64,000 nucleotides of DNA from the NCBI GenBank assembly GCA_964628585.1, contig CAZVMH010000005.1:2491-66490 (forward strand), read 5' to 3'. The notes beneath the pieces are model-generated. The model ran no database searches and was not told the origin of the DNA. It saw nothing but the letters and a program-made list of their open reading frames with translations. The translations under genes were made by a program, and so were the position numbers. The stretch comes from an uncultured Candidatus Saccharibacteria bacterium (GTDB taxonomy: Bacteria; Patescibacteriota; UBA1384; XYA2-FULL-43-10; 1-14-0-10-43-13). Positions 228 to 55,472 of this stretch are shown piece by piece (positions within the stretch are counted from its first letter, which is position 1; every line of letters starts with the position of its first letter).

Positions 228-3032
228 TCAGTCAACCTCAACTTTAAAGGTGACTTCGCGGGTGTCGTTGGGGTTTACCTGGCCGAGGTTCCAGGTGATT
301 TTACCGTTACTGTATTGTCCCTCGCCGGTGGCGGAATTGGTAACATATGTCGTCCCGTCAGGAATTTCATTGGATAAGATATTATTGCTTCCCGTGAAGG
401 TGTAAGGTGTGGGGTTGGTGATCTTTAAAGTATAGGTGATCTCCTGGCCGTGATTGGCGCTTGTACAACCTTCTGTCCCCCCACAACTTGATGTCTGCTC
501 GACTTTTAGATAGTCGTAGTAGAGGTCGGCAACTGCTAATAATGGATCAAGACCCGAAAAGTATATACTATCATCTAAAATGGCAATTCCTTTTTCACTC
601 TGATCTGATGAAGGTAAATAACCAATTTCAGTTGACTGAGAAGGATTGGTGACATCAATAATTTGTATACCGTTATAGTCTGCTGATGAACTAAAATTAT
701 TAACATATGCTTTATTTTGAACAATTGTGATATTTCTGCAAGAGCTAACTTTTGGGACAATAGTTTTAATTAATTGGGGATTGTTAGGCACATTAATATC
801 AACAACAAGTGTACCGTTAGCATCAGCTGTTAAAAAAGCAAATGTACCTTGAATCGCAACATCTCTTATATAATTATTAACACTAGGGGTGATGACATTG
901 GGATATAAATAAGGAGCAGATAGATTAGCAACATTAGCAACTCGCATATTTTCAGTGTTAGCGATATAAGCATAGATACCACTTACAGCTACTGCTGACG
1001 GGCTTCCGTTAGTGTTTAAAGTCGATTTTTTAATTGGATTTTGGGGATTATTTATATCGTAAATTAGTAAACCTTCACTTGTATTAGCGATAAATAATAA
1101 ATTATTTTTTACTGTGACACCACGTGGATAGTGAGAAGCATCTATTGTCGACAACAGAGACGGATTAAGAGGATTTCTAATATCAATTATTTTTATTGAT
1201 GAATAGGTGGAAGAAGATGAAGGTGGTGTATCGGCTAACACAATATAATCATTACCATAAAACGTGGAATCAAGAACCTTATTAGTATTTATTGCACCTA
1301 CTTGATAAGATTGTTTTTGGTTAATTATTTTATAAATATATAATTTTGATTGATAAGCGCTGTAGGTAGCAACATATAAATATTCACCTTTAATATTAAT
1401 TGAGCTAATATAATCTGTACTAGATATAAGAGACGTTACTATTGGGGCAAGTGGATTATTTACATCCGTTAATACTAAACCGCCGTACATTTCAGCAATA
1501 CCGAGAATATTATGGCAACTAATATCGATACTGTTATAATACGTATGACCGTGATGATTCTGAAAATTTTTGTATTTTGGGTAAAAAGGGTCCGATATAT
1601 CGTAAACAGCAAATCCATTATAATCATAACTATAAGCAAAACTGCCAATATATAAATAATTATTTAATATTTTAATACTCATGTTTACTTCACCCTCAGT
1701 TAAGTCATGGGTGTAAAATTTAATATCATCTGGATTATTAATTTCAAATATATACATATTTTCATTAGTTATTACATAAGCATAATTATTTTGGATCGCA
1801 ACATCAATGACAGAACCTTCAGTTTCGATTGTTTTAATAATAATAGGTAATTTTACATCGCTTATATTTAGTAACAAAATCCCAGTTCCGTCTGCGATTA
1901 CTGCTTTACCGTTATTAACTACTATTGACCTAGAAACTCCTGGGGTATCAAATATGCTAATTACTACAGGCATAATAGGATATGTTATATCATAAGTTAT
2001 TAAGCCAGCATCATAGCACGCTATAAATAATTTATTGTCTGATATATATAAACCGTAACTATAATCTGGGGTTTCCATAACCTTTACAATTTCGGGTTTA
2101 AATTTATCTGTGATATTTATTATAGATATATTTTTACCATTGCTAACGTAAACATAATTTTTATCATCCTCGATGATATCATATGCTTTATCTTCAAGCT
2201 TTACAGAACTTATTATGAGTGGATTATTGGGATTATGAACATCAGCAATTTGCATATTTTTATCAGATCCAATGTATAGATAATTACCATCTTTTGAGAA
2301 TTTGGGTACATATACGTTTTCGCCAACCATTGGCAACTCTCTCACTATTTTTGGGTTGACGCCGGTATACTTGTAGGTCGGGGTGGCGGAGGCGGTGTTG
2401 GTGTATTCGGTAAATGTTGTGTCGTTGAGTTTGCCTCTAACCTTGTAGTAGTAGGTGGTGTCGGCGACAAGGTCGGTGGTATCCGTGTAGGTGACGGTGT
2501 TGGCCGGCAGTGTGGCAAGAACGCTGAAGTGTTGGTCGTCGCCCTGGCTTTTCTCAACAATGTAGTTGGTCTCAATACCGGTGTGGTCTTGCCAGGCAAG
2601 ATTGATTTTAAGCGAGTCGGTCGCGGCTGTGGCGGTCAGGTTGGTGGGCGGATTGATGGGGATGGTGGCAGAGACGGTTGGGGTTGGTGGCGAAGGATTA
2701 TACGACGAATCGCGAGCTACGAGGTTAAAGTAGCGAGTATCGCCTTCGGTCAGTGGATTAGGCAAGGTATAGTTTGTCGTATCAGCTGGTCGAGTGGTCA
2801 GGTAATATAAGTTTGCGGCAGTTGTCCCCCATCTTATTTGATAATCTGTCTCACCGGCAACATCATCCCAGGTCAGTTTGATCTTGTTTGTCTCAACGAT
2901 AGTGGCTTTAAAATTTGTTGGTGTTGCCGGAACAGCCAAAACTGGCATTGCTCCCAAACTGAAAGTATACGCCAAAAAGATAATCGTTAAGACAACATTA
3001 GTAATACGTTTTAGTTTTGCATGCTTTAGCAT
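228..3032 (-). CDS. Giant secreted/cell-surface protein, paralog A (934 aa). Domains: signal peptide, Fn3 repeats, LVIVD-like beta-propeller repeats, C-terminal DUF11-like module with a CGGTEGC motif.
   Basis: N-terminal hydrophobic signal (VVLTIIFLAYTFSLGAMPVLA). Fn3-like segments (KIKLTWDDVAGETDYQIRWGTT; LTATAATDSLKINLAWQDHTGIETNYIVEKS). Repeated YAYV/LYIA...GLLIYDI blocks typical of LVIVD propellers. C-terminus ADLYYDYLKVEQTSSCGGTEGCTS...ITYTLKITNPTPYTFTG...KITWNLGQVNPNDTREVTFKVEVD is shared with the next two genes. SD-like AAGGAAAtttATG upstream. Confidence 0.85.
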   Translation of the reverse strand: MLKHAKLKRITNVVLTIIFLAYTFSLGAMPVLAVPATPTNFKATIVETNKIKLTWDDVAGETDYQIRWGTTAANLYYLTTRPADTTNYTLPNPLTEGDTRYFNLVARDSSYNPSPPTPTVSATIPINPPTNLTATAATDSLKINLAWQDHTGIETNYIVEKSQGDDQHFSVLATLPANTVTYTDTTDLVADTTYYYKVRGKLNDTTFTEYTNTASATPTYKYTGVNPKIVRELPMVGENVYVPKFSKDGNYLYIGSDKNMQIADVHNPNNPLIISSVKLEDKAYDIIEDDKNYVYVSNGKNISIINITDKFKPEIVKVMETPDYSYGLYISDNKLFIACYDAGLITYDITYPIMPVVISIFDTPGVSRSIVVNNGKAVIADGTGILLLNISDVKLPIIIKTIETEGSVIDVAIQNNYAYVITNENMYIFEINNPDDIKFYTHDLTEGEVNMSIKILNNYLYIGSFAYSYDYNGFAVYDISDPFYPKYKNFQNHHGHTYYNSIDISCHNILGIAEMYGGLVLTDVNNPLAPIVTSLISSTDYISSINIKGEYLYVATYSAYQSKLYIYKIINQKQSYQVGAINTNKVLDSTFYGNDYIVLADTPPSSSSTYSSIKIIDIRNPLNPSLLSTIDASHYPRGVTVKNNLLFIANTSEGLLIYDINNPQNPIKKSTLNTNGSPSAVAVSGIYAYIANTENMRVANVANLSAPYLYPNVITPSVNNYIRDVAIQGTFAFLTADANGTLVVDINVPNNPQLIKTIVPKVSSCRNITIVQNKAYVNNFSSSADYNGIQIIDVTNPSQSTEIGYLPSSDQSEKGIAILDDSIYFSGLDPLLAVADLYYDYLKVEQTSSCGGTEGCTSANHGQEITYTLKITNPTPYTFTGSNNILSNEIPDGTTYVTNSATGEGQYSNGKITWNLGQVNPNDTREVTFKVEVD

Positions 3033-3052
3033 AAATTTCCTTGTATACTTTT

Positions 3053-6000
3053 TTAATCTACCTTGACCTTGAAAGTGACTTCGCGTGTGTCGTTGGGGTT
3101 TACTTGACCGAGGTTCCAGGTGACTTTGCCATTACCAAATGTTCCCCCACCGGTGGCTGAATTGGCAACATATGTTGTGTTGGCGGGAATGGGGTTAGAT
3201 AAAATATTATTGTTGCCAGTAAATGTATACGGCGTCGGGTTGGTGATCTTTAAGGTATAGGTAATCTCTTGGTTATGCGTAGCGCTTGTGCACCCCTCTG
3301 TCCCCCCACAACTTGATGTCTGCTCGACTTTCATATAGTCGTAGTAGAGGTCGGCAACCATAGTTAATTCTGCGTCATTTGCCAAATAGACGTAACGTCC
3401 GTCAACTGAGAGAGCTTGAGTACGCCTTCCCCCGTCTGATAAAAAAGCCAGATCAGTAAGTATTGACGGCGTCGAAATATCAAAAAACTTAAAACCGTTC
3501 TCAGCGCTTAAGTAGCTAAAGCACGATGCGAACAACTTGTTTCCGGAGACAGTTATAGATGTGGCAGAGCTTGATATAGGTAACGATCCTGTACCGCCTT
3601 TTACGGGGCTCTGCGGTACTGTGACATTGATAATTTGAATAGTATTGACAATGCCGACATAGGCATAGCTATCTTTGGCGTCAACACTCACTAGTGTACC
3701 GGTTAATGTCAGCGTACCAATAAAACTAGCGCTAAGAGGATTGGCAATACTTAAAACCTTAAAAGTATCTTCACCGACAGTATAGGCGTAAGTACCTGAT
3801 ATGGCAATGTCACGAATCAACTTTTGCGAGCCCAATGTTTTTACGACCTTTGCTTGAGTAATATCAATAATAAGTAGGTTATTTATATCGCCGAGAGTGC
3901 GACCACCTATATACGCATAATTGCCGGCTGTCGCAACAGCTTGCAAATATTTATAATCACCAAAGGTCATGGTATTTATTAAATTTGGACTGGCCGGATT
4001 ACGAATGTCAATGATGGCTAATTTGTTGTTTTCGCAAATAACCAAGGCGTGGTGATTATTATCAAGGGCTATTTTTAACGGTTCACTAATATTGAAACTT
4101 TTAACATGAAGTGGCTTTTCGGGAGTTCCGCGCTGTTTAATATCATAGATGTATATTTTGTCCTGGACACCGGACTCGGGTATAACATAGAGATAATTGC
4201 CGTCTGTGACGTTATCTTTTGCTGTCATTGATTGTGGCATGACTGATAATATTGTTGAACTTTCTGGTGTAGCAACATCGACAATTGAAATGCCTCCGTA
4301 CGATTCAGCTAAAATAGCGATATTTTCCTTAACATCAATACCGCCATAATACGGTTGACCAGTAATTTGTACAAATTTTATTTCTTGAGGTACGGGCGAG
4401 GATATGTTAAATATTTGCAAGCCGTTAGACGTACTTAAGCCGGATCTGGTATTAACATAAGCAAAATTATTTTGAATTTTAACACCATTAATAGCACCGT
4501 ATAAAATTGGTCTACCGTTACCTAAGTACTGTGGTTGACTCGGGTCTTGAATATTTAGGGCAACAAGGCCGACATCACTACCAACACACAGATAGGCATT
4601 GCCGTTAGGGGCAATATCGATATCGAGAATCGGATTTCCGGCGTCGTAGATACCAAAAGAAGGTATTTGACCATTTCTGGCTGCTAATTCAAAATTAGCC
4701 GGTGTCGTTGTTAGTACTTGTTTATTTGAGTTGTTTCCTATTAAAACAATATTGTCATTGGCGGCAATAGTAGTAATAGCACCATTAATATTAATAGTAC
4801 CGATAGTTGTAGCAAGATACGGGTTTGTAATATCAACTAGAGCGGCGCCGCTGGTGTAAACGGCAAGATAGACATGATTGTTGTTGATTGCTATATCTTG
4901 TAAATAATTTGGAAAATCGATTGTTTTAATAACACGCGGTTTGAGGGGGTCAAAGACATTAACGATTTTTAAGGAATGATCGTCAATAACATATAAATAA
5001 CCGTTGTTGTCTAATTCTAAATCGGAAGGGCCAGCCATTTCCAAACTAGATAATATCAAAGGTTGATTTGGGACGCTAATATCAACGATACGTAGACTTT
5101 TAATATTACCATCAGTAACATACGCATATTGTTTATCTTGAGATATTATTACTTTGCTAGCATCGCCTATTGTCGGTGTCTTGCCAATCCACCCCGGGTT
5201 AATGCCGGTGTATTTGTAGGTTGGGGTGACAAAGACGGTGTTGGTGTATTCGGTAAATGTTGTATCGTTGAGTTTGCCTCTGACCTTGTAATAGTAGGTG
5301 GTGTCGGCAACAAGGTCGGTGGTATCTTCAAAGATTACGGTGTTGGCCGGCAGTGTGGCAAGAACGGTAAAGTTGCTCTCATCATTAGGGCTTCGTTCTA
5401 AGATGTAGTTGGTCTCAATAGTGGTGTGGTCTTGCCAGGCAAGGTTGATTTTAAGCGAGTCGGTAGCCGGTGTGGCGGTCAGGTTGGTGGGCGGATTGAT
5501 GGGGATGGTGGCAGAGACGGTTTCGGTGGGGGCCGAGCAACCGTAAACGTCGTGGCAGGCCTTTAGAGAAAAGTATCTGGTGTCGCCTTCGTTTAATGTA
5601 TAAGTGTAGATATAGCTGGTGGTGTTGGCGGAAGGATAAAAGAGATAGACAAGATTGTTTGGTGTTGTGCCGTAGTCCAGGCGATATTTGCTTTCACCAG
5701 CCACATCATCCCAGGTCAGTTTAATCTTGTTTGTCTCATAGACGGAGGCCGTAAAGTTGGCAGGCGTTGGCGGTGGCGGCGGGGTAGCCAAAGTTGTTGC
5801 CGTAACTTGTTGGTCGGCGCAGATTTCTTTACCGGCGTAGTAGTTAAAAGCGCATAAACGATAGGTGTAGGTTGTTGAGGGCAATAAGGAGGTATTGTCT
5901 GAATATGACCCTGGCGAGGCATCTGCTGATTGATTGTAGTCGCCGCTGCCACCGGTGCGGTAGAGCTTAATTTGGCTGTAATTGCCGCTATTGGTATTGG

Positions 6001-6481
6001 CCTGATTAGACCAGGTGAGGTTGATTCTGTCATAGGCAACGCCTTGGGCTGACAGGTTGTAGGGCGGGCCGTCTAAAGTGGTGGTAAATGCATAGGACGA
6101 AGAAGTTGACTCACCGTATATATTGTAGGGTAAGACCTTGTAATAGTAGGCGGTATAGCCCTTAAGGCCTGTGTCTTGGTAACTGGTTGCATCAACACCG
6201 GCTTCGCCAACCTGCTCCCAGGGACCGCCGTCCGACAAAGATCGTTTAATGTGGAAGCCCTGTTCGTCGGTAGCAGGACATGTCCACGTAAGATTTATTT
6301 GACTGTATGATATGGCTTTGGCGTTTAGACTGTAAACCTGTGTTGGCACACCGGCTCTGACAATTAAAATACCCAAAAACAAGACCGCCAAAGCCACACC
6401 GACACCGATTAAAACGCCGGTGAGAGTAAATTTACGCTTGGGTTTGGTTGGGGTTTGAGGTGATGATTGTTGCGTGTTCAT
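3053..6481 (-). CDS. Giant cell-surface protein, paralog B (1142 aa). Domains: N-terminal Lys/Pro-rich segment plus TM anchor, multiple Fn3 repeats, LVIVD-like beta-propeller, C-terminal DUF11-like module.
   Basis: N-terminus KPKRKFTLTGVLIGVGVALAVLFLGILIV (signal anchor). Several Fn3 units (INLTWTCPATDEQGFHIKRS; RINLTWSNQANTNSGNYSQIKLYR; KIKLTWDDVAGESKYRLDYGTT). The C-terminal 75 aa is nearly identical to paralogs A and C. RBS cAGGAGGgcaaaATG. Confidence 0.85.
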   Translation of the reverse strand: MNTQQSSPQTPTKPKRKFTLTGVLIGVGVALAVLFLGILIVRAGVPTQVYSLNAKAISYSQINLTWTCPATDEQGFHIKRSLSDGGPWEQVGEAGVDATSYQDTGLKGYTAYYYKVLPYNIYGESTSSSYAFTTTLDGPPYNLSAQGVAYDRINLTWSNQANTNSGNYSQIKLYRTGGSGDYNQSADASPGSYSDNTSLLPSTTYTYRLCAFNYYAGKEICADQQVTATTLATPPPPPTPANFTASVYETNKIKLTWDDVAGESKYRLDYGTTPNNLVYLFYPSANTTSYIYTYTLNEGDTRYFSLKACHDVYGCSAPTETVSATIPINPPTNLTATPATDSLKINLAWQDHTTIETNYILERSPNDESNFTVLATLPANTVIFEDTTDLVADTTYYYKVRGKLNDTTFTEYTNTVFVTPTYKYTGINPGWIGKTPTIGDASKVIISQDKQYAYVTDGNIKSLRIVDISVPNQPLILSSLEMAGPSDLELDNNGYLYVIDDHSLKIVNVFDPLKPRVIKTIDFPNYLQDIAINNNHVYLAVYTSGAALVDITNPYLATTIGTININGAITTIAANDNIVLIGNNSNKQVLTTTPANFELAARNGQIPSFGIYDAGNPILDIDIAPNGNAYLCVGSDVGLVALNIQDPSQPQYLGNGRPILYGAINGVKIQNNFAYVNTRSGLSTSNGLQIFNISSPVPQEIKFVQITGQPYYGGIDVKENIAILAESYGGISIVDVATPESSTILSVMPQSMTAKDNVTDGNYLYVIPESGVQDKIYIYDIKQRGTPEKPLHVKSFNISEPLKIALDNNHHALVICENNKLAIIDIRNPASPNLINTMTFGDYKYLQAVATAGNYAYIGGRTLGDINNLLIIDITQAKVVKTLGSQKLIRDIAISGTYAYTVGEDTFKVLSIANPLSASFIGTLTLTGTLVSVDAKDSYAYVGIVNTIQIINVTVPQSPVKGGTGSLPISSSATSITVSGNKLFASCFSYLSAENGFKFFDISTPSILTDLAFLSDGGRRTQALSVDGRYVYLANDAELTMVADLYYDYMKVEQTSSCGGTEGCTSATHNQEITYTLKITNPTPYTFTGNNNILSNPIPANTTYVANSATGGGTFGNGKVTWNLGQVNPNDTREVTFKVKVD

Positions 6482-6515
6482 TTTGCCCTCCTGATATTAC
6501 CCAACTACCACCTCC

Positions 6516-6532
6516 GGGGTGGAAGTTTGTCG
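6516..6532 (-). other. Short GC hairpin (CCACC-TCCGG-GGTGG) in the 61-bp spacer between paralog C stop and paralog B RBS. Possible attenuator or RNA-processing site within a polycistronic surface-protein transcript.
   Basis: Inverted repeat ccacctccggggtgg read directly. No T-run follows on the minus strand, so it is not a classic terminator. Confidence 0.3.
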
Positions 6533-6542
6533 GTTAAATTAG

Positions 6543-9500
6543 TTAATTGACCGTTACCTTAAAGCTCACTTCCCTTTCCTCGTTGGGGTTTACTTGACCG
6601 AGGTTCCAGGTGATTTTACCGCTACCGTATTGTCCCCCGCCGGTGACAGAACCCTGAACATATGTTGTTCCGTCAGGAATTTCATTGCTTAAAATATTAT
6701 TGTTGCCAGTAAATGTATACGGTGTGGGGTTGGTAATCTTTAAAGTATAGGTAATCTCTTGGCCGTGATTGGCGCTTGTGCACCCCTCTGTCCCCCCACA
6801 ACTTGATGTCTGCTCGACTTTTAAATAGTCGTAGTAGAGGTCGGCAACCTCGACAAGGTACTTTTCGTCTGTGATATATGCATAACGTCCGTTGGCGGTT
6901 GCTGCCATGGCATGGAAAGATGATTGTAAAAAAGCTTTTTCAGTAGCCATCGTTGGATTAGAAATATCGATTATTTGTAAACCATTATTGAAAAAATTCC
7001 AACTATAGTTGGCAATATAAACTAAGTTATTTTGTAAAAATACACTATAAGCCATATCGCGTGGTATGACTTCTCTAACAATAGAGGCATTAAATGGGTT
7101 GGTAGTTAAATTAACAATAAGCGTGCCTTGATTGAAAGCGGCAACATAGGCATAATTATTTGCCCCTACAGCAACATCGTGTGTTGTCTGTGTTGTCGCG
7201 ATGGTTTTAATCCACGTTAACGCATTAGCGTTGCTAACATTTAAGAGAGTTATACCAGCCGTGCCATCGGCGATAACGGCCGTTGTGCCGTTTAAAGCTA
7301 CGCCAAATACTTGTCCTGGCGTGTTGTATGACCCCAGTTTTTTAAGTGATAAAACATTATTCATATCAACAATGACTAATCCCGCTTCATAACAGGCGGC
7401 ATATATTTTATTGTCTTTAATAGAAACATCAAGTACATAATCGGGCATCTCGATACCGGAAATAATTGTCGGTATTCGTGGGTTACTGACGTCAACGAGA
7501 CGAATATATTTATCGTCGCTAACTACAACATAATTGCCGGTTATTTCTAACGCAATTGGTGAAGTAAGTTTTAATGCTCCCACCTGTTCCGGATATTTTG
7601 GGTCGCTAATATCGTAAATGTATAAATAATCTTGTATGCCAGAGTTGCTAAAAGTGTATAAATGATTACCACTAGTGACAATTTTTCCTGATGGTATATT
7701 AATCGTTGGTATATAAGCAATGGCCCAAGTATTTGTAAGATCGTTAGTGTCAAATATCGCCAAGCCATATAAATTGCCACTGGCGACGCTGACAATACCA
7801 CCAAAACTAGACACACCGCCATAATTATTACCAGCGTTAAGCATAAAAGCGATTTCTTTTAAGCTATTGTCAGGGTTGCGCTGGGTAACATCAAATATCT
7901 GAAGACCGTTATGGGTGTTAGCACGACTCAAATTAGCCACGTATATACGGTTACCGGAAGTAGAAACCCCGATTGCATAATCTCTTTGTAAAGAGGTCGA
8001 AATAAGGATGGGAATAGATGGCGTTGAAAAGTCAATTTCCAATAAACCAGCATATCCGGCGGGAATATAAGCACGACCGTTTTCGGCAATTGTCACATTT
8101 CTCACAATAGAAGCTGTATCTGTAATCGGTATTGATGATAAGTGTTGCGCAGATTTTAGATCAATAATTGCCACACCCTCTGTGCCATCGGCGACAACGG
8201 CCGTATCACCTAATACGGCCACCGATGATGCCTGACCCGGGGTGTCAATAGTTGTATCGAGCAAACGGGGTATAGACCGATTACTGACATCAACAATTCT
8301 AAGACCGACAGAATAGTTAGCAATGTATATTTTCTCGTCAAGATAGAACAATCCATTAACATAGTCCGTCAGCTCAAGCTCTGAAACAGCAATCGGTCGT
8401 TTTGGGTCATTAATGTTGGCAATTTTTAATTTTTTATTTTCACCATAATAAATGTAGCCCTTTTCATCAACTTTAATATCAAAAATTTCTTTACCTGTAT
8501 CGACATTTATTCTGCTCGTCAACAACGGATTCGTTGGATCAGAAATATCAACAATTTGAAGACCAGTAGACGATCCAACATATGTGTAATGACCGTCATT
8601 AGACATAGCTGTATATTTGGTGCTTCCCATTGACGGAGTTTTACCGATCCATCCCGGGTTGACGCCTGTGTATTTGTAGGTTGGGGTGGCAAAGACGGTG
8701 TTGGTGTAATCGGTGAAGGTGGTGTCGTTGAGTTTGCCTCTGACCTTGTAGTAGTAGGTGGTGTCGGCAACAAGGTCGGTGGTATCCGTGTAGGTTACAG
8801 TGTTAGCGGGCAGTGTGGCAAGAATGGTGAAGTGTTGGTCGTCGCCCGGGCTTTTCTCAACAATGTAGTTGGTTTCAATAGTGGTGTGGTCTTGCCAGGC
8901 AAGATTGATTTTAAGCGAGTCGGTCGCGGCTGTGGCGGTCAGGTTGGTGGGCGGAAAGGTATTTGTTGTTGCTTGGGCAATTGTTGGCGAATCGGAACAA
9001 CCATCAGCATTACAGGCCTTGATGTTAAAGTAGTAGGTCTTGTTTTCTGTAAGATTATTTGTTGTATAGGTGGTAGCATTAGCCGGTAGAGCCGGTAGTA
9101 AGTTTAGAGTGTTGGGGTCTTCGCCTTGACGCAGTTCAAAGCGGGTTTCGTTGTCGGAATTGTCTTGCCAGGTTAGTTTGATCTTTGTTACTTCTTGTAT
9201 ATTAGCTTCAAGGTTGGTGGGCATAGCCGGTGGTGGATCTGGTGGTGGCGGAGAAAAAGTTGTTGCCGAGGCCGTCTCGGTTGAGCAGGTCTCGCCGTAC
9301 GAGTTTGTGGCGCAAATGCTAAAAGTATAAGTAGTATTGGGCAAAAGATTCGTTTCAGTATATGACGTTCTCGGAGAAGGTATCCATGTTTTAATATCCG
9401 AATAAGGGCCACCGCTTCTGTTAATAATGAACCAGTCCACAACAGGGGCATTGTTAGTCCAAGAAACATTAATCTCGGTCTGGGAAACAGCTGTGGCTGT

Positions 9501-9950
9501 AAGATTACTGGGGGCAGCAGGAGGGCCACTAAGAGTTGTGGCGTAAGCCAGATTAGAATAGAAGGAATAGACCATATCAGCATTGAAAGCTCTGACACGA
9601 TAGAAATACCTAGTGTAATTTGCTAAGCCAGTGTCTTGAAAAGCTGTTGTATTAGCGGGTTGGGTAAATGTTGTCCAGGGGCCGTAGCTAGATGTTCCCC
9701 TTGCAACCTCAAAACCGGCTTCATCATTAGCATTATCAGTCCAAGTGAGATTAATTTGGCTGGGAGAAACGGCTGTAGCCGTCAGACCAGATGGAGCAGA
9801 GGGCGCTTGGGCCCTGACAATTAAGATACCAATAAACAAGACCGCCAAAGCCACACCGACACCGATTAAAACGCCGGTGAGAGTAAACCTGCGTTTGGGT
9901 TTAGGCGGGGTTTGGGGTTTGCTGGCAGTATTATTTAGAGCACTAGCCAC
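6543..9950 (-). CDS. Giant cell-surface protein, paralog C (1135 aa). Domains: TM signal anchor, four or more Fn3 repeats, LVIVD-like beta-propeller, C-terminal DUF11-like module.
   Basis: N-terminus KPKRRFTLTGVLIGVGVALAVLFIGILIV is almost identical to paralog B. Fn3 motifs (QINLTWTDNANDEAGFEVARG; EINVSWTNNAPVVDWFIINRSGG; KIKLTWQDNSDNETRFELRQG). Shared conserved C-terminus. Confidence 0.85.
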   Translation of the reverse strand: MASALNNTASKPQTPPKPKRRFTLTGVLIGVGVALAVLFIGILIVRAQAPSAPSGLTATAVSPSQINLTWTDNANDEAGFEVARGTSSYGPWTTFTQPANTTAFQDTGLANYTRYFYRVRAFNADMVYSFYSNLAYATTLSGPPAAPSNLTATAVSQTEINVSWTNNAPVVDWFIINRSGGPYSDIKTWIPSPRTSYTETNLLPNTTYTFSICATNSYGETCSTETASATTFSPPPPDPPPAMPTNLEANIQEVTKIKLTWQDNSDNETRFELRQGEDPNTLNLLPALPANATTYTTNNLTENKTYYFNIKACNADGCSDSPTIAQATTNTFPPTNLTATAATDSLKINLAWQDHTTIETNYIVEKSPGDDQHFTILATLPANTVTYTDTTDLVADTTYYYKVRGKLNDTTFTDYTNTVFATPTYKYTGVNPGWIGKTPSMGSTKYTAMSNDGHYTYVGSSTGLQIVDISDPTNPLLTSRINVDTGKEIFDIKVDEKGYIYYGENKKLKIANINDPKRPIAVSELELTDYVNGLFYLDEKIYIANYSVGLRIVDVSNRSIPRLLDTTIDTPGQASSVAVLGDTAVVADGTEGVAIIDLKSAQHLSSIPITDTASIVRNVTIAENGRAYIPAGYAGLLEIDFSTPSIPILISTSLQRDYAIGVSTSGNRIYVANLSRANTHNGLQIFDVTQRNPDNSLKEIAFMLNAGNNYGGVSSFGGIVSVASGNLYGLAIFDTNDLTNTWAIAYIPTINIPSGKIVTSGNHLYTFSNSGIQDYLYIYDISDPKYPEQVGALKLTSPIALEITGNYVVVSDDKYIRLVDVSNPRIPTIISGIEMPDYVLDVSIKDNKIYAACYEAGLVIVDMNNVLSLKKLGSYNTPGQVFGVALNGTTAVIADGTAGITLLNVSNANALTWIKTIATTQTTHDVAVGANNYAYVAAFNQGTLIVNLTTNPFNASIVREVIPRDMAYSVFLQNNLVYIANYSWNFFNNGLQIIDISNPTMATEKAFLQSSFHAMAATANGRYAYITDEKYLVEVADLYYDYLKVEQTSSCGGTEGCTSANHGQEITYTLKITNPTPYTFTGNNNILSNEIPDGTTYVQGSVTGGGQYGSGKITWNLGQVNPNEEREVSFKVTVN

Positions 9951-10554: not shown

Positions 10555-11052
10555 CTATGATGATAATGCAGTAAGCGCCGGTTTGTTGGAGAGCGAACAA
10601 ACCGCTTCAGAGAGAAGCCCTCCGCAATTGCTTCTCTCTAGATAAATCTCGAACAGTACTTTGTCGAAGCTACCATAACGACGCATCAATGTCTCAATCT
10701 GAGCCATCAACATGCTCAGCTCTTCAAGCCCGACATAGTCTGTAGATATCACGCCGTCACAGTCTAGGCCAGACCCACATGCTGCAAACGTTATGACCTT
10801 GGTGAAACGTTTGCAAAACTCGACTGACCATCTCTCCCCCCCTGAAGAAAGGAGTATGATCCATGGCCTGTGCATCTTGAGAGCCCTTTGTGTCTCAAAT
10901 TCGTTATCGCAGATTACAACCTTGAAGAGTGGGGCGTTTAGACTTTCTTCTGCCCAACCAAGCTGGTGTAGCCAATTGATATTCTCCCCCACAATCAACA
11001 GTGAGGGTCGAATAGTTCGACTAGCCAACATTCCCTTCATCCAATCGCTCAT
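10555..11052 (-). CDS. Hypothetical protein (165 aa) with compositionally atypical, higher-GC coding DNA. No confident family assignment; possibly a receiver-like or Rossmann-like fold.
   Basis: ORF is bounded by two strong intrinsic terminators. GC is about 45-47% versus about 33% in the surroundings. Motifs LLIVGENINW and PWIILLSSGGERW are only weakly reminiscent of CheY-like folds. Confidence 0.45.
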   Translation of the reverse strand: MSDWMKGMLASRTIRPSLLIVGENINWLHQLGWAEESLNAPLFKVVICDNEFETQRALKMHRPWIILLSSGGERWSVEFCKRFTKVITFAACGSGLDCDGVISTDYVGLEELSMLMAQIETLMRRYGSFDKVLFEIYLERSNCGGLLSEAVCSLSNKPALTALSS

Positions 11053-18346: not shown

Positions 18347-18743
18347 TAATATATGAGAATTTTATCTTTTTGATCTGTTTTGTAAAAAGTGACTCAATTT
18401 TTTTTGGCCATTCAATTATCAAAACTGTGTCTTCTTTGCCAATAAGTTCCAATAAACCAATTGCCTCTGCATCAGCTGTATTATTAAGGCGATAACAATC
18501 CAAATGTGCAATGTTTTTTATATTATTGATTGATTCTGGCAACTGGTATTGCTTCATTATGACGAATGTTGGACTATTAATGATTCGCTCTACACCCAAT
18601 GCTTTAGCGAAATAGCGAGCAAAGGTCGTTTTACCACTTCCCAAGTCTCCGTACAGAGCAAAAACGTCACCGCCTTTTGCATTTTTTGCAATTTTTTGGG
18701 CAATTTCTAAAGTTTCTTTTTCAGAATGAGAGATATATTCCAT
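18312..18743 (-). CDS. tsaE: tRNA t6A ATPase TsaE/YjeE.
   Basis: Walker A LYGDLGSGKTTFARYFAKALGV. Conserved INSPTFVIMKQY motif. Confidence 0.85.
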   Translation of the reverse strand: MEYISHSEKETLEIAQKIAKNAKGGDVFALYGDLGSGKTTFARYFAKALGVERIINSPTFVIMKQYQLPESINNIKNIAHLDCYRLNNTADAEAIGLLELIGKEDTVLIIEWPKKIESLFTKQIKKIKFSYINENSRKIEHEK

Positions 18744-19957
18744 AAAAAAGTGAGCATTAATCCAAAAATTGGATATATAAATGGTGGTACGCCTGTCTTT
18801 GGCAAGGTCACTTTTGCAACAGAGACAATTTTAACATCTTCCTGCTTGAATGGCAATATCCTTAAAATTCCATTGTAAGTTGATAAGACTCCGGCAATTT
18901 GAAAAGTATCACCTTTTTTCATTGCTGGCTTTTCAATATTCGTTCCTTCTTTAATGATAACTTTTATCTCTTTGCCTTTCGAATCAGCGATTGAAAAAGT
19001 ATCACCAGAGGTTGAAACCACCACTCCAGTTGTTTGAATATACTCACCAACCTGATCGTTTGTGATATCGCTGATTATTCTTTCCATGGGAGGATCAATT
19101 TCTTTGTGGTTTATCATAGTAATGTCCAATGGGTCAACTATTTTAATTCTTCTCTCTCCTGAAATTGAGGAAATTTCGCCCATAACCGATATTAAGTCTC
19201 CTTCTGTTAAGGTTGGAAAATCTTTATCATAATTATAGATTTGAATTCCACCGGTTTCATCCTGAATATAAAAATAATTTGATGATAGTTGCCCCGGTAT
19301 TGCTGTTACTATACCCTGAACCAAAACTTCTTCTCCGTTTTCTTTTCCTTCGGCTGATGCAATTGAAATAATTTCTTGTCCGCCCGTGTCTTCATCTATG
19401 ATGCTCGGAACTTCATATTTAATATTTGTTTCTCCTGGCGTTGGAATTGATATCAACAAATCACTAGCACTATCTGTATCAACACCATTTGGCAATCGAG
19501 ATATGGATTTACCTCGATAATTATCGAGATTTAAAGTGACAGAATCGACAGGAGTATCTGCTCCAAATATTAAAGTTAGAATATCTTCGCTAGCATAATT
19601 GATTCTGAATGTTAAAACATTGTTAGGCGCCATTTCTGTATCTGTAGATCTATAAAGTATAAAGTATTGCTCACTCCCAATTTCATCGAACAATGATAGA
19701 TCAATAGTATTGCCAGTTTTTCTACTAATAAAATAGCCTTTTAATGAAATCGGATCAGCGGTTGGATTATATAATTCGATGAATTGATCCGAATAATTTA
19801 GAACATCTGTCCCAGTAAAAATTTCATTTATAAGAAGATGATCTGCCCTTGCCGCCGCATTTTCTGCTCTACAATGAGAAAAATTAAATAAAAAAATTGC
19901 ACCCAATACAAATGTGCAACAATATAATAACTTTTTAATTGCCCCAACCTTTTTCAT
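18707..19957 (-). CDS. Cell-wall-anchored surface protein with a lamin-tail domain (LTD) and a C-terminal LPXTG sortase sorting signal.
   Basis: Signal peptide. LTD HLLINEIFTGTDVLNYSDQFIELYNPTADPISLKGYFIS. C-terminus VTLPKTGVPPFIYPIFGLMLTFLWNISLILKKKL, i.e. an LPKTG motif plus hydrophobic helix plus positively charged tail. Confidence 0.75.
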   Translation of the reverse strand: MKKVGAIKKLLYCCTFVLGAIFLFNFSHCRAENAAARADHLLINEIFTGTDVLNYSDQFIELYNPTADPISLKGYFISRKTGNTIDLSLFDEIGSEQYFILYRSTDTEMAPNNVLTFRINYASEDILTLIFGADTPVDSVTLNLDNYRGKSISRLPNGVDTDSASDLLISIPTPGETNIKYEVPSIIDEDTGGQEIISIASAEGKENGEEVLVQGIVTAIPGQLSSNYFYIQDETGGIQIYNYDKDFPTLTEGDLISVMGEISSISGERRIKIVDPLDITMINHKEIDPPMERIISDITNDQVGEYIQTTGVVVSTSGDTFSIADSKGKEIKVIIKEGTNIEKPAMKKGDTFQIAGVLSTYNGILRILPFKQEDVKIVSVAKVTLPKTGVPPFIYPIFGLMLTFLWNISLILKKKL

Positions 19958-32445: not shown

Positions 32446-33303
32446 TTACTTTTTCGACAGACCAGCCTCATCGATTATGAATCTGATTGTACCATCGCGA
32501 TCAGTTCGATAATATTTGATAGAATTTTGAACTAATAGATCAAGAACTGCCGTATGAGGGTGGCCAAATTTGTTATTGGCGCCAACTTCTATGACTCCAA
32601 TTTGTGGTTTCACAGCATCTATCAGATTTTGGTTTGTACCATTGGTCGAGCCATGATGAGAAAGTTTCATAATTTCTGATTGGATATTGCTAATGCTTAT
32701 AAATTTTACCTGTTCGTCTGTTTCAATGTCTCCTGTAAAAAGTACACAATGAGTAAAATAGCAAAATCTTGTCACTTCTGAAGTATTATTGGCGTTTTCG
32801 TTCGTTTTTTGTTCGTACAACTTTCCTGGCCAAAGAAAAGTTAATTCTCCATTCTGGAACGGCAAAATTTGTTCGCCAATGTCTGGGACAGGGCTTACGA
32901 TATTTTTTTTCTTGATCTTAGCCAGAAATTCAGTATAGGCGTTGGAATCATACAGTGTTCCAGAGTAATATATTTTCTCGACCTGATACCGATCCAGAAT
33001 TTGATTGATACCGATGAGGTGATCTGCGTGAGGATGAGTTAAAATTACTACTTCAATTCTTCGATCCGTCAGGGGCATCACTTTACCCAATTCTGATAGA
33101 ACTTTGTCGTCTCCCCCACCATCAATTAAGATTTGATAGTCCCCTTTTTGGATTAGTTCGCTGTCTCCCTGGCCTAAATCAAAAAAGTAAACTGATGCTT
33201 CGCTTTTATTCTCGTTGGCCGAAGGACTCCTGGCAATATTTGCCCAAACAAAAAATGCCCCCAAAGCAAGAAGCACAAGAATAATTTTAGTCCATTTTTT
33301 CAT
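32446..33303 (-). CDS. Stand-alone secreted MBL-fold (metallo-beta-lactamase) protein corresponding to the C-terminal domain of ComEC.
   Basis: Own signal peptide MKKWTKIILVLLALGAFFVWA. VVILTHPHADHLIG (HxHxDH). ...LSHHGS. The start ATG overlaps the comEC stop (ATGA). Confidence 0.8.
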   Translation of the reverse strand: MKKWTKIILVLLALGAFFVWANIARSPSANENKSEASVYFFDLGQGDSELIQKGDYQILIDGGGDDKVLSELGKVMPLTDRRIEVVILTHPHADHLIGINQILDRYQVEKIYYSGTLYDSNAYTEFLAKIKKKNIVSPVPDIGEQILPFQNGELTFLWPGKLYEQKTNENANNTSEVTRFCYFTHCVLFTGDIETDEQVKFISISNIQSEIMKLSHHGSTNGTNQNLIDAVKPQIGVIEVGANNKFGHPHTAVLDLLVQNSIKYYRTDRDGTIRFIIDEAGLSKK

Positions 33304-51375: not shown

Positions 51376-51452
51376 TGGTAGCGGCGGGAGGACTTGAACC
51401 TCCGACCTCGGGCTTATGAGTCCCACGCTCTAACCAGCTGAGCTACGCCGCC
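51376..51452 (-). tRNA. tRNA-Met (CAU), elongator type, CCA encoded.
   Basis: Reverse complement GGCGGCGTAGCTCAGCTGGTTAGAGCGTGGGACTCATAAGCCCGAGGTCGGAGGTTCAAGTCCTCCCGCCGCTACCA. Paired 1:72 (G-C). D-arm and T-arm are canonical. Anticodon loop CTCATAA. Resembles bacterial elongator tRNA-Met. Confidence 0.82.
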
Positions 51453-51876: not shown

Positions 51877-51953
51877 TGGTAGCGGGGGTTGGATTTGAAC
51901 CAACGACCTTCTGGTTATGAGCCAGACGAGCTACCGGACTGCTCCACCCCGCA
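51877..51953 (-). tRNA. Initiator-like tRNA-fMet (CAU), CCA encoded.
   Basis: Reverse complement TGCGGGGTGGAGCAGTCCGGTAGCTCGTCTGGCTCATAACCAGAAGGTCGTTGGTTCAAATCCAACCCCCGCTACCA. Near-identical to the E. coli initiator tRNA through the acceptor, D and T arms. Unpaired 1:72 (U.U), as in bacterial initiators. The anticodon stem has two rather than three G-C pairs. Confidence 0.8.
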
Positions 51954-55396: not shown

Positions 55397-55472
55397 GGGC
55401 CCGTAGCTCAGTGGTTAGAGCAGCCGGCTCATAACCGGTCGGTCGCAGGTTCGATCCCTGCCAGGCCCACCA
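55397..55472 (+). tRNA. tRNA with CAU anticodon, most similar to tRNA-Ile2 (lysidine-modified, the TilS substrate). Elongator Met is the alternative.
   Basis: GGGCCCGTAGCTCAGTGGTTAGAGCAGCCGGCTCATAACCGGTCGGTCGCAGGTTCGATCCCTGCCAGGCCCACCA. The D-arm and variable/T regions match E. coli tRNA-Ile2 (LAU) closely. One C.A mismatch in the acceptor stem. Confidence 0.75.

What the first reader, a model, noticed from the sequence alone, without database searches (positions are those of the whole stretch)
2340..9100. Mosaic near-identical DNA blocks among the paralogs indicate ongoing gene conversion
Stretches of about 150-300 bp are almost identical at nucleotide level between paralogs, while the flanking propeller regions are highly diverged. 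Examples are 2520-2700 vs 5390-5530 vs 8820-8990, encoding PINPPTNLTATAATDSLKINLAWQDHT.IETNYIVEKS...TTYYYKVRGKLNDTTFTEYTNT, and the C-terminal blocks 420-540 / 3249-3360 / 6746-6850. The antisense shadow ORFs called in the track (2529-2810 and 8832-9089) are near-identical to each other for the same reason. This patchwork is what segmental gene conversion or recombinational shuffling between cassettes produces, and it is a possible antigenic or host-range variation mechanism.
Basis: seen in the sequence. Interest (0 to 1): 0.6.

Follow-up and report, generated by a model that had tools for sequence, protein, structure and literature searches.

The report
Domain-sized gene conversion among tandem surface-protein genes
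Three neighbouring surface-protein genes of an uncultured Patescibacteria (CPR) bacterium have very old, unrelated-looking propeller cores but share two much younger, GC-enriched domain-sized DNA blocks, which is the ordinary footprint of past gene conversion between paralogs and not an active variation machine.

Summary
Three tandem minus-strand genes are involved: A 228-3032, B 3053-6481 and C 6543-9950. Each encodes an N-terminal anchor, FN3 domains, an LVIVD double beta-propeller and a C-terminal DUF11 domain.

At DNA level the genes resemble each other only in a few blocks:
- the last FN3 domain (about 300-330 nt, 85-92% identity);
- the C-terminal DUF11 module (about 300 nt, 81-86%);
- a B-C N-terminal patch (109 nt, 89%);
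- an older A-B extension.

Elsewhere nucleotide identity is 35-50% and synonymous sites are saturated. Synonymous divergence inside the blocks is far lower (pS 0.25-0.54 against about 0.72). Outside homologs lie closer to each propeller than the genomic neighbours do, yet the blocks are 82-93% identical among the paralogs and at most 63% identical to any outside protein. That is concerted evolution by segmental recombination.

"Almost identical" and "ongoing" are overstated. The longest exact run is 73 nt, and block divergence of 8-19% compares with 0.05% between two independent samples of the organism.

What is homogenised is the constant scaffold, not the variable propeller, and there are no silent cassettes, so an antigenic-variation mechanism is not supported.

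The blocks are also GC3 islands (0.52-0.75 against a genome value of 0.30). This is compatible with GC-biased gene conversion but does not prove it.

Verdict: a new member of a known kind, of modest interest.

The parts
228..3032 (-). Paralog A (934 aa): signal/anchor, 2 FN3 domains, LVIVD double beta-propeller, C-terminal DUF11 domain
   Evidence: ORF list. Pfam LVIVD, fn3, DUF11 and Beta_propel above cut-off. NCBIfam DUF11-type repeat. AF2 model pLDDT 83.6.
3053..6481 (-). Paralog B (1142 aa): N-terminal TM anchor, FN3 stalk, LVIVD double propeller, DUF11 domain
6543..9950 (-). Paralog C (1135 aa): N-terminal TM anchor, 4 FN3 domains, LVIVD double propeller, DUF11 domain. First gene of the probable C-B-A operon.
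   Evidence: Upstream terminator at 10530-10508, promoter-like site at 10244-10217 and RBS AGGAGG.
2353..2679 (-). FN3 block, copy in A: the whole last FN3 domain plus the linker to the propeller
   Evidence: 92.3% identical to C and 86.7% to B. GC3 0.75. Abrupt boundaries.
5196..5522 (-). FN3 block, copy in B. It carries two divergent patches relative to A and C.
   Evidence: GC3 0.65.
8656..8955 (-). FN3 block, copy in C. It begins 27 nt later than the A-B tract.
   Evidence: GC3 0.68.
228..536 (-). C-terminal block, copy in A: VADLYYDY junction plus the whole DUF11 domain, through the stop codon
   Evidence: GC3 0.56.
3053..3361 (-). C-terminal block, copy in B
   Evidence: GC3 0.53.
6543..6848 (-). 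C-terminal block, copy in C
   Evidence: GC3 0.52.
6353..6461 (-). N-terminal (TM anchor) block, copy in B, shared with C only
   Evidence: 89% over 109 nt. pS 0.28. Contains a 54-nt exact match.
9810..9918 (-). N-terminal (TM anchor) block, copy in C
   Evidence: An independent Logan contig ends at 9861, inside the 54-nt exact repeat.
2680..2930 (-). Older, weaker A-B tract upstream of the FN3 block. Its partner in B is 5523-5773.
   Evidence: A-B is 76% over 584 nt including the FN3 block. D5 repeat at 77%.
537..2352 (-). Propeller core of A (not homogenised). Closest relative is the outside protein P0344.
   Evidence: 26-29% aa identity to B and C, 33% to P0344. NJ bootstrap A+P0344 0.89. 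GC3 0.20.
3362..5195 (-). Propeller core of B (not homogenised)
   Evidence: GC3 0.32.
6849..8655 (-). Propeller core of C (not homogenised). Closest relative is the outside protein P0247 (45%).
   Evidence: NJ bootstrap C+P0247 0.83.
2529..2810 (+). Antisense shadow ORF over the A block. It lies in the exact antisense codon register and is a by-product of GC-rich third positions.
8832..9089 (+). Antisense shadow ORF over the C block
   Evidence: B has no ORF of 80 aa or more at the equivalent place.

Best explanation
A, B and C are anciently diverged tandem paralogs of a membrane-anchored surface protein: FN3 stalk, LVIVD double beta-propeller and a distal DUF11 domain. They lie in a Patescibacteria chromosome.

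Several separate non-reciprocal homologous recombination events (ectopic gene conversion between misaligned direct repeats, tracts of about 100-600 bp) copied whole-domain segments from one paralog into another. This repeatedly homogenised the last FN3 domain, the C-terminal DUF11 module and, for B and C, the N-terminal anchor.

The propellers and the upper FN3 stalk were not homogenised. They are now too diverged to supply the exact-match seeds that recombination needs. Selection for different binding specificities may also have removed converted variants.

What is shown: the mosaic, its low synonymous divergence, its discordant histories and its discordance with outside homologs.

What is inferred:
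- the RecA/RuvAB pathway;
- retention of tracts because the two domains serve a common scaffold or partner function;
- GC-biased repair as the cause of the high GC3 of the tracts. I put that last sub-claim at about 0.4.
For: **1. Mosaic.** DNA similarity between the genes exists only in the blocks. Transitions are abrupt.

**2. The blocks are young at silent sites.**
- pS is 0.25-0.36 in the FN3 block, 0.36-0.54 in the C-terminal block and 0.28 in the N-terminal B-C block. It is 0.70-0.73 in the propeller and 0.72-0.76 in the upstream FN3 region. Bootstrap CIs of the FN3 and N-terminal B-C blocks do not overlap those of the diverged regions; for the C-terminal block only the A-B interval touches the lower ends of the diverged-region intervals.
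- At identical amino acids the same codon is used 0.61-0.84 of the time in the blocks and 0.42-0.43 outside. Fisher p ranges from 8e-3 to 3e-11.
- The silent-site maximal-fragment permutation gives p <= 2e-4 for every pair.

**3. More than one event.**
- The closest pair is A-C in the FN3 block (72% of bootstraps) and B-C in the C-terminal block (76%). A-B pS is 0.29 in one block and 0.54 in the other.
- Odd-one-out sites are clustered inside each block (p = 1e-4).
- The tracts are nested: A-B 584 nt at 76%, overlain by A-C 300 nt at 92%.

**4. Concerted-evolution test against outside homologs.**
- In the propeller the paralogs are 26-29% identical to each other, but C-P0247 is 45%, A-P0344 33% and B-P0248 33%.
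- NJ bootstrap support for {A,B,C} is 0/300, with C+P0247 at 0.83 and A+P0344 at 0.89.
- In the FN3 block the paralogs are 83-93% identical against <=52% outside, and {A,B,C} has 0.78 support.
- In the C-terminal module the figures are 82-88% against 59-63% for P0344.

**5. Recombination substrates remain only in the blocks.** There are 5-9 exact runs of 24 nt or more per pair in the blocks, and nothing above 16 nt elsewhere. RuvA and RuvB are encoded in the window.

**6. The blocks are compositional islands.**
- GC3 is 0.52-0.75 and GC4 0.51-0.79, against 0.30 in 35 other genes of the window and 0.20-0.32 in the propellers.
- Synonymous singleton changes in the blocks run 25 S>W to 25 W>S. 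That implies a local equilibrium GC3 of about 0.63 and no decay towards 0.30.
- The single-copy outside relative P0004 has a flat GC3 profile.

**7. A second array.** Contig L093 starts in the DUF11 tail of one paralog, carries P0344, and ends at the start of a third paralog. The shared module there also has raised GC3.
Against: - No orthologous array from a sister genome could be recovered, so 'paralogs closer than orthologs' rests on distant outside homologs of uncertain orthology.
- The C-terminal NJ topology is unresolved ({A,B,C} support 0.26). Only the distances are clear.
- High GC3 is not confined to the shared blocks. B's upstream FN3 region (GC3 0.55) and ORF 10555-11052 (0.52) have no partner in the window or in the databases. 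This fits a GC-richer foreign source at least as well as biased conversion.
- Polarising singletons with three sequences and no outgroup is weak, and the counts are small.
- Block boundaries coincide with domain boundaries, so protein-level constraint contributes to what is seen.
- The sequence is a metagenome assembly and no reads were examined.
Confidence: 0.7

Rival explanations
1. Cassette replacement. The three genes descend from a fairly recent tandem triplication, and the blocks are what remains of it. The propeller, and separately the upper FN3 stalk, of each copy was later replaced by homologous recombination with diverged homologs taken up from other lineages. The conserved blocks served as crossover anchors. 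Under this reading the blocks are the old, stable part and the propellers are the imports.
For: - Each propeller has a closer relative outside the genome than inside it: C-P0247 45%, A-P0344 33%, B-P0248 33%.
- The propellers differ in composition: GC3 is 0.20 in A and 0.32 in B and C.
- The competence channel ComEC is encoded in the window.
- The variable cores are flanked on both sides by blocks that still hold exact runs long enough for recombination.
Against: - It needs at least two independent replacements per gene (stalk and propeller), each ending exactly at the block edges.
- It does not explain why block ages and closest pairs differ between blocks, or why odd-one-out sites are patchy inside the blocks.
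- No donor closer than 45% was found among 1.84 billion representatives.
- All three propellers have GC3 at or below the genome value, so they look long resident. The blocks are the compositionally foreign-looking part.
Confidence: 0.2
2. No recombination. The blocks are conserved because those two domains are under unusually strong constraint that also covers synonymous sites, through codon-usage selection, mRNA structure or an overlapping antisense gene.
For: - The blocks equal whole domains.
- dN/dS in the blocks is low, 0.13-0.37.
- The C-terminal core also keeps 70-80% DNA identity with the module in L093 over 56-135 nt.
Against: - Outside homologs share only <=52% (FN3) and 59-63% (DUF11) identity with the blocks, against 82-93% among the paralogs. 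Constraint alone therefore cannot give the within-genome identity.
- Conserved residues in the propeller show only background codon sharing, 0.42-0.43.
- The mRNA folds of the blocks are unremarkable (z -0.4 and -0.8), and there is no Rfam match.
- The antisense ORFs are absent in B, diverge outside the block and have no family match.
- The histories inside the blocks are discordant and patchy.
Confidence: 0.05
3. Assembly artefact. The mosaic is a chimera built by a short-read metagenome assembler from strain variants or collapsed repeats.
For: - The source is a metagenome-assembled contig.
- An independent k=31-type Logan contig breaks inside the B-C repeat at 9861.
- L093 is also broken at the shared modules.
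Against: - The copies are 81-92% identical, not identical, and the longest exact run is 73 nt, shorter than usual reads and large assembler k-mers.
- All three reading frames are intact over 2.8-3.4 kb.
- The 12.9 kb next to the array is reproduced at 99.95% in another sample.
- A chimera would not create graded, patchy divergence at silent sites.
Confidence: 0.03

Closest known systems
Helicobacter pylori babA/babB and homA/homB outer-membrane protein paralogs (segmental concerted evolution)
   Same: - These are paralogous surface-protein genes built of segments.
- An end segment of the paralogs from one strain groups together, which is attributed to intragenomic gene conversion.
- The middle segment is the diverse, allele-defining part.
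- Conservation of the converted segment is attributed to structural constraint (PMC2795765, citing Pride & Blaser 2002 and Santoyo & Romero 2005).
   Different: - Here the genes form a head-to-tail array in a Patescibacteria genome.
- Two to three domain-sized tracts are homogenised.
- The unconverted core is far more diverged (26-29% aa, silent sites saturated) and belongs to lineages with closer relatives in other organisms.
- No strain series is available, so conversion has not been watched happening.
Cassette-type antigenic variation by segmental gene conversion (Neisseria pilE/pilS, Borrelia vlsE, Anaplasma msp2, Mycoplasma genitalium MgPar; from my own knowledge)
   Same: Non-reciprocal recombination between paralogous surface-protein sequences, with conserved stretches that can serve as anchors around variable ones.
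   Different: - Those systems have one expressed gene plus truncated silent donors.
- It is the variable segments that are moved, at high frequency.
- Here all copies are complete genes, the variable propellers share no tracts, and the last events are old.
GC-biased gene conversion in bacteria (Lassalle et al. 2015, PMC4450053)
   Same: Recombining sequence has higher GC3 than the rest of the genome, independently of codon-usage selection. Here the shared tracts have GC3 0.52-0.75 in a genome with GC3 0.30.
   Different: - That work is a genome-wide statistical association for allelic recombination. This is a single locus with ectopic conversion.
- The elevation here is much larger.
- Part of the array without a partner is also GC-rich.
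- The W>S fixation bias could not be polarised properly.
Whole-gene concerted evolution of duplicated bacterial genes (tufA/tufB, rRNA operons; from my own knowledge, review PMC6002687 for rRNA)
   Same: RecA-type conversion keeps duplicated sequences alike within a genome.
   Different: Those cases homogenise the whole gene and preserve one function. Here only scaffold domains are homogenised while the presumed binding domains stay distinct.
LVIVD-repeat / DUF11 cell-surface proteins (Adindla et al. 2004, PMC2447325; Pfam PF08309, PF01345)
   Same: The domain families are the same and a cell-surface location is predicted.
   Different: That paper defines the repeats. It does not describe paralog arrays or conversion.

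Membership tests
Concerted evolution by segmental (ectopic) gene conversion | Localised tracts of high identity with sharp edges between otherwise diverged paralogs in one genome | tested here: met
Concerted evolution by segmental (ectopic) gene conversion | Synonymous divergence in the tracts well below that of the flanks | tested here: met
   pS is 0.25-0.54 against 0.70-0.76. Same-codon fraction is 0.61-0.84 against 0.42-0.43. Permutation p <= 2e-4.
Concerted evolution by segmental (ectopic) gene conversion | In the tracts, paralogs are closer to each other than to homologs from other genomes; in the flanks they are not | tested here: met
   Caveat: the outside proteins are distant homologs, not demonstrated orthologs, and the C-terminal tree topology is unresolved.
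Concerted evolution by segmental (ectopic) gene conversion | Different histories in adjacent segments (phylogenetic incongruence) | tested here: met
   The closest pair is A-C in the FN3 block and B-C in the C-terminal block. Site patterns are clustered.
Concerted evolution by segmental (ectopic) gene conversion | Conversion events seen between strains or in experiments (needed to call it 'ongoing') | not testable with these tools
   Only one assembly covers the array. Exact-protein look-ups of A, B and C found no other contig. The independent contig L088 stops at 9861.
Cassette-type antigenic variation (pilE/pilS, vlsE, msp2 type) | One expression site plus promoterless or truncated silent donor cassettes | tested here: not met
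   All three are complete ORFs with a start codon, an N-terminal anchor and a stop codon.
Cassette-type antigenic variation (pilE/pilS, vlsE, msp2 type) | The variable segments are the ones exchanged | tested here: not met
   No shared tract lies in the propellers or the upper stalk. One stray 16-mer is the only match outside the blocks.
Diversity-generating retroelement | A reverse transcriptase plus a template/variable repeat pair that differs at adenines | tested here: not met
   No RT was found among the 30 of the 41 flanking ORFs of 150 aa or more that were scanned. Differences between copies are of all types and include indels.
Shufflon / invertible-segment systems | Inverted repeats and a site-specific recombinase | tested here: not met
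   All copies are direct repeats on one strand. No recombinase was found among the ORFs scanned.
GC-biased gene conversion | Raised GC at silent sites specifically in the recombining tracts | tested here: met
   GC3 is 0.52-0.75 and GC4 0.51-0.79, against 0.30 for the genome and 0.20-0.32 for the propellers. The outside single-copy gene has a flat profile.
GC-biased gene conversion | Excess of AT-to-GC fixation relative to the mutational expectation, and independence from codon selection and from foreign origin | tested here: inconclusive
   25 S>W against 25 W>S synonymous singletons, where about 80:20 is expected for a GC3 = 0.30 equilibrium. Polarisation is weak, and B's partnerless stalk is also GC-rich.
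LVIVD beta-propeller / FN3 / DUF11 surface proteins | Matches above the curated cut-offs of PF08309, PF00041, PF01345 and TIGR01451 | tested here: met
   The model shows FN3 domains plus a double propeller.

The most novel reading that the evidence does not exclude
The two homogenised, GC-enriched blocks are kept alike because they act as recombination anchors. Under this reading they allow whole double-propeller cassettes to be exchanged between array members, and with homologous DNA taken up from the community through ComEC. That would give an episymbiotic Patescibacteria cell a modular, swappable host-attachment repertoire. The sharp GC3 islands would then be one of the clearest single-locus footprints of GC-biased conversion in a bacterium.
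Probability: 0.12. Interest if true: 0.6.

Novelty: new member of a known kind. Interest (0 to 1): 0.3.

Why it matters
Patescibacteria are mostly uncultured, and many are thought to live attached to other cells. Little is known about how their surface proteins evolve.

This locus shows the standard bacterial pattern of scaffold domains kept alike by conversion while binding cores stay distinct. It applies here to an array whose three propellers each belong to a different old lineage of the family.

There are practical consequences. The blocks break short-read assemblies. Similarity-based annotation will wrongly suggest that these are recent duplicates. Tests for selection on these genes must allow for conversion and for a GC bias.

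The GC3 islands offer a small, clean test case for biased gene conversion in an AT-rich, reduced genome, provided sister arrays can be recovered.

Tried and rejected
- **Related arrays.** The genome-contig scan and the metagenome-contig scan returned only distant FN3 matches (<=44%).
- **Exact-protein look-ups.** A, B, C and P0001 are not on record. The response regulator is not on record either. The histidine kinase look-up gave five contigs of the same organism, but none reaches past 9861.
- **Word-index protein search with A.** It missed relatives such as P0344 and P0247, which the exhaustive search found. My early inference that the DUF11 module is unique to the three paralogs was therefore wrong and was dropped. 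P0344 and P0363 carry it.
- **Donor for B's GC-rich FN3 stalk.** Nothing closer than 34-48% was found.
- **Other mechanisms.** DGR, shufflon and cassette antigenic variation each fail a defining feature (see membership test).
- **RNA-level constraint.** There are no Rfam hits and the folds are ordinary.
- **Antisense genes.** They are shadows.
- **Low complexity or tandem repeats.** None in the blocks.
- **Promoter and terminator scan.** Not above the shuffled expectation.
- **P0363 context.** It is single-copy, so it is not a second array. P0247's contig is not on record.
- **Structure.** The C-terminal domain was modelled poorly (pLDDT about 40-57). It has no significant PDB sequence match, so nothing is claimed about its function.
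Full report
**What is there**

The left 10 kb of the window holds three head-to-tail genes on the minus strand: A 228-3032 (934 aa), B 3053-6481 (1142 aa) and C 6543-9950 (1135 aa). The gaps between them are 20 and 61 nt. Upstream of C lie a strong terminator, a promoter-like site and an AGGAGG ribosome-binding site, so C-B-A is probably one operon.

All three proteins have the same plan:
- an N-terminal hydrophobic anchor;
- FN3 domains (two in A by the model, about four in B and C);
- about 610 residues of LVIVD repeats;
- a C-terminal DUF11-type domain (Pfam; NCBIfam; alignment).

An AlphaFold2 model of A (pLDDT 83.6) shows the FN3 domains followed by a double beta-propeller. The C-terminal domain is poorly modelled. 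Foldseek finds only generic tandem propellers (TM about 0.5) and FN3-plus-propeller receptor ectodomains.

The rest of the window is ordinary chromosome: RuvA/RuvB, DnaK/DnaJ, LepA, FtsH, MurJ, ComEC, QueA and tRNAs. Its GC is 37%. LepA's best named relatives are Patescibacteria and Candidatus Berkelbacteria MAGs at 62-79% identity.

**Check of the observation**

blastn of each gene against the window finds similarity between the paralogs only in a few places.
- FN3 block: A 2353-2679, B 5196-5522, C 8656-8955. A-C is 92.3% over 300 nt, A-B 86.7% over 327 nt, B-C 85.2% over 330 nt.
- C-terminal block: A 228-536, B 3053-3361, C 6543-6848, at 81.5-86.3% over about 300 nt.
- B-C patch over the membrane anchor: 6353-6461 and 9810-9918, 89%.
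- A weaker A-B continuation up to 2930/5773, giving 76% over 584 nt.

In 30-codon windows the remainder is 31-50% identical in DNA and 5-45% in protein. Transitions are abrupt. The C-terminal block starts at GTTGCCGACCTCTACTACGAC in all three genes, directly after unalignable sequence.

The blocks are not low-complexity or tandem-repeat sequence. Every exact match of 16 nt or more between two paralogs lies in a block, apart from one 16-mer.

'Almost identical' is generous, because the longest exact runs are 73, 54, 52 and 50 nt.

The two antisense ORFs are identical only where they lie under the block (28 of the first 31 codons). They have no counterpart in B and no family match. They sit in the exact antisense codon register of GC3-rich sequence, so they are shadows.

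**Are the blocks young, or only constrained?**

Nei-Gojobori synonymous differences separate the regions. The bootstrap intervals of the FN3 and N-terminal B-C blocks do not overlap those of the diverged regions; for the C-terminal block only the A-B interval touches the lower ends of the diverged-region intervals.

| Region | pS |
|---|---|
| FN3 block | 0.25-0.36 |
| C-terminal block | 0.36-0.54 |
| N-terminal block (B-C) | 0.28 |
| Propeller | 0.70-0.73 (saturated) |
| Upstream FN3 region | 0.72-0.76 (saturated) |

To control for protein conservation I looked only at aligned identical amino acids. They use the same codon 61-84% of the time in the blocks but 42-43% elsewhere (Fisher p from 8e-3 to 3e-11). 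A GENECONV-like maximal-fragment test on those silent comparisons gives p <= 2e-4 for each pair.

The block mRNAs do not fold unusually well (z -0.4 and -0.8) and there are no Rfam matches. Constraint at the RNA level is therefore not a good explanation.

**Comparison with proteins from elsewhere**

An exhaustive HMMER search with C's FN3 block plus propeller found outside proteins that score higher than the genomic neighbours. P0247 scores 629 bits, P0248 548, P0004 481, P0252 480 and P0259 441. A scores 418 and B 394, even though A and B contain the near-identical FN3 block.

Identity by region:

| Region | Among A, B, C | Best outside matches |
|---|---|---|
| Propeller | 26-29% | C-P0247 45%, A-P0344 33%, B-P0248 33% |
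| FN3 block | 83-93% | <=52% |
| C-terminal module | 82-88% | P0344 59-63% |

In neighbour-joining bootstraps of the propeller, {A,B,C} is never a group (0/300). C+P0247 has 0.83 support and A+P0344 has 0.89. In the FN3 block {A,B,C} has 0.78 support. The C-terminal topology is unresolved, because two long outside branches attach to a very short paralog subtree.

This is the classical signature of concerted evolution. The cores are older than the split from other organisms, and the blocks are much younger.

**More than one event**

The closest pair is A-C in the FN3 block (72% of bootstraps) and B-C in the C-terminal block (76%). A-B silent divergence is 0.29 in one block and 0.54 in the other.

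Inside each block the sites where one copy differs from the other two come in runs. C is the odd one at the 5' edge of the FN3 block, B in two internal patches, and A beyond the 3' edge. This clustering is significant (p = 1e-4). The 300-nt A-C tract at 92% sits inside a 584-nt A-B tract at 76%.

Several overlapping tracts of about 100-600 bp are what repeated ectopic conversion gives.

**Composition**

The blocks are also GC islands at silent sites.

| Sequence | GC3 |
|---|---|
| FN3 block | 0.65-0.75 (four-fold sites 0.70-0.79) |
| C-terminal block | 0.52-0.56 |
| 35 other genes of the window | 0.30 |
| Propeller of A | 0.20 |
| Propellers of B and C | 0.32 |

In gene A, GC3 falls from about 0.7 to about 0.2 within some 30 codons at the block edge.

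P0004 is a single-copy relative in a 52% GC contig, and its GC3 profile is flat. The effect is therefore not a property of the domains.

Synonymous singleton differences in the blocks are 25 GC-to-AT and 25 AT-to-GC. If the blocks were relaxing towards the genome's GC3 of 0.30, about 80:20 would be expected. The rates imply a local equilibrium near 0.63.

This fits GC-biased gene conversion as proposed for bacteria (PMC4450053). I hold it as a sub-hypothesis only, for three reasons:
- Three sequences cannot be polarised well.
- B's upper FN3 stalk (GC3 0.55) and ORF 10555-11052 (0.52) are GC-rich too, yet have no partner in the window.
- Neither has a close relative in the databases, so a GC-richer foreign source remains possible.

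**A second array**

P0344, the closest relative of A's propeller, sits on a 2.7-kb Logan contig, L093 (GC 38.6%). The contig comes from the same run series as samples that contain the window's organism.

L093 begins inside the DUF11 tail of an upstream paralog. It ends at the ribosome-binding site and start codon of a further paralog, which repeat those of P0344. Tandem arrays of this family with shared end modules therefore exist at least twice.

The contig is broken at the shared modules. In the same way, the independent contig L088 of the window's organism stops at 9861, inside the 54-nt exact B-C repeat.

GC3 in L093 is about 0.28 in the propeller, 0.40-0.45 in P0344's own DUF11 module and about 0.54 in the upstream paralog's tail (and a hand count).

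**Is it ongoing, and is it a variation mechanism?**

L088 matches the window at 99.95% over 12.9 kb. The block copies differ by 8-19%. The last conversions therefore long predate the diversity seen between samples, and 'ongoing' is not shown.

The blocks do still hold 5-9 exact runs of 24 nt or more per pair. From my own knowledge that is enough for RecA-type recombination, so further events, including deletions or duplications between direct repeats, remain possible.

What has been homogenised is the constant scaffold. The propellers, which are the presumed binding parts, share nothing. There are no silent cassettes, and no invertase or reverse transcriptase among the ORFs scanned. Cassette-type antigenic variation, shufflons and DGRs each fail a defining feature.

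**Rivals**

- **Cassette replacement (0.2).** The main rival is a recent triplication with the cores later replaced, using the blocks as anchors. It also involves recombination, and it would explain why each propeller has a closer outside relative. It needs more events, finds no close donor, and leaves the differing block histories unexplained. It also makes the native-looking AT-rich propellers the imports.
- **Pure constraint (0.05).** Contradicted by the outside-homolog comparison and the codon control.
- **Assembly artefact (0.03).** Unlikely given 81-92% identity, short exact runs and intact frames.

**Comparison with what is known**

The closest described cases are the H. pylori bab and hom paralogs. 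There, an end segment evolves in concert through intragenomic conversion while the middle segment is allelic and diverse, and the converted segment is thought to be structurally constrained (PMC2795765).

This locus works the same way. It differs in the host (Patescibacteria), the tandem arrangement, the domain-sized tracts, the much older cores and the marked GC3 islands. I found no paper describing this for Patescibacteria in the library searched.

**Verdict**

- Observation: confirmed.
- Interpretation: partly supported. Past segmental gene conversion is supported. 'Ongoing' and 'variation mechanism' are not.
- Novelty: a new member of a known kind.
- Interest: modest, at 0.3.

Noticed in passing
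window 5523-6340 (B, upstream FN3 stalk) and 10555-11052 (ORF, 165 aa): Both are GC3-rich (0.55 and 0.52, against 0.30 for the genome). Neither has a DNA partner in the window or a close relative in the protein databases, and the ORF has no Pfam match. Part of the array region may be of GC-richer foreign origin, or it may have conversion partners outside the contig.
   Followed up: partly
L093 1-128, 167-2656, 2657-2712 (Logan SRR29243430): A second tandem array of the same family. The contig starts in the DUF11 tail of one paralog, holds P0344 (the closest relative of A's propeller) and ends at the RBS and start of a third paralog. It could belong to a related organism or to another locus of the same genome.
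   Followed up: partly
window 9834-9887 / 6377-6430; L088 end = window 9861: An independent assembly of the same organism (99.95% identical over 12.9 kb) terminates inside the 54-nt exact B-C repeat. The shared blocks break k-mer assemblies, so such arrays will be under-represented in short-read MAGs.
   Followed up: yes
window 472-485, 3297-3310, 6787-6800 (minus strand): A G6 run (TGT GGG GGG ACA, Cys-Gly-Gly-Thr) is conserved in all three C-terminal blocks of an AT-rich genome. A slippage here would cut off the DUF11 domain. It is too short to call a phase-variation tract.
   Followed up: no
P0004, P0247, P0248, P0252, P0259 versus P0344, P0363: The outside homologs with alanine/glycine/proline-rich (GC-rich-looking) sequences end right after the propeller (...ADL, ...AKY, ...AAF). 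The AT-rich-type relatives carry the DUF11 module behind a YYDxLKVE junction. The module is thus an add-on restricted to part of the family.
   Followed up: partly
window 51376-51452 (-), 51877-51953 (-), 55397-55472 (+): Three tRNA genes with a CAT anticodon lie within 4 kb. They are presumably the initiator, the elongator Met and a tRNA-Ile that is read after lysidine modification.
   Followed up: no
window 18707-19957 and 52483-54336 (minus strand): Two secreted-looking proteins carry a lamin-tail domain, one of them with an OB fold. ComEC lies at 33300-34820. This may be a DNA-uptake-related set of the kind often seen in Patescibacteria.
   Followed up: no
window 39716-41872 (+): A 718-aa ORF with no Pfam family. 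The only hit is a sub-threshold thrombospondin type 3 repeat match.
   Followed up: no
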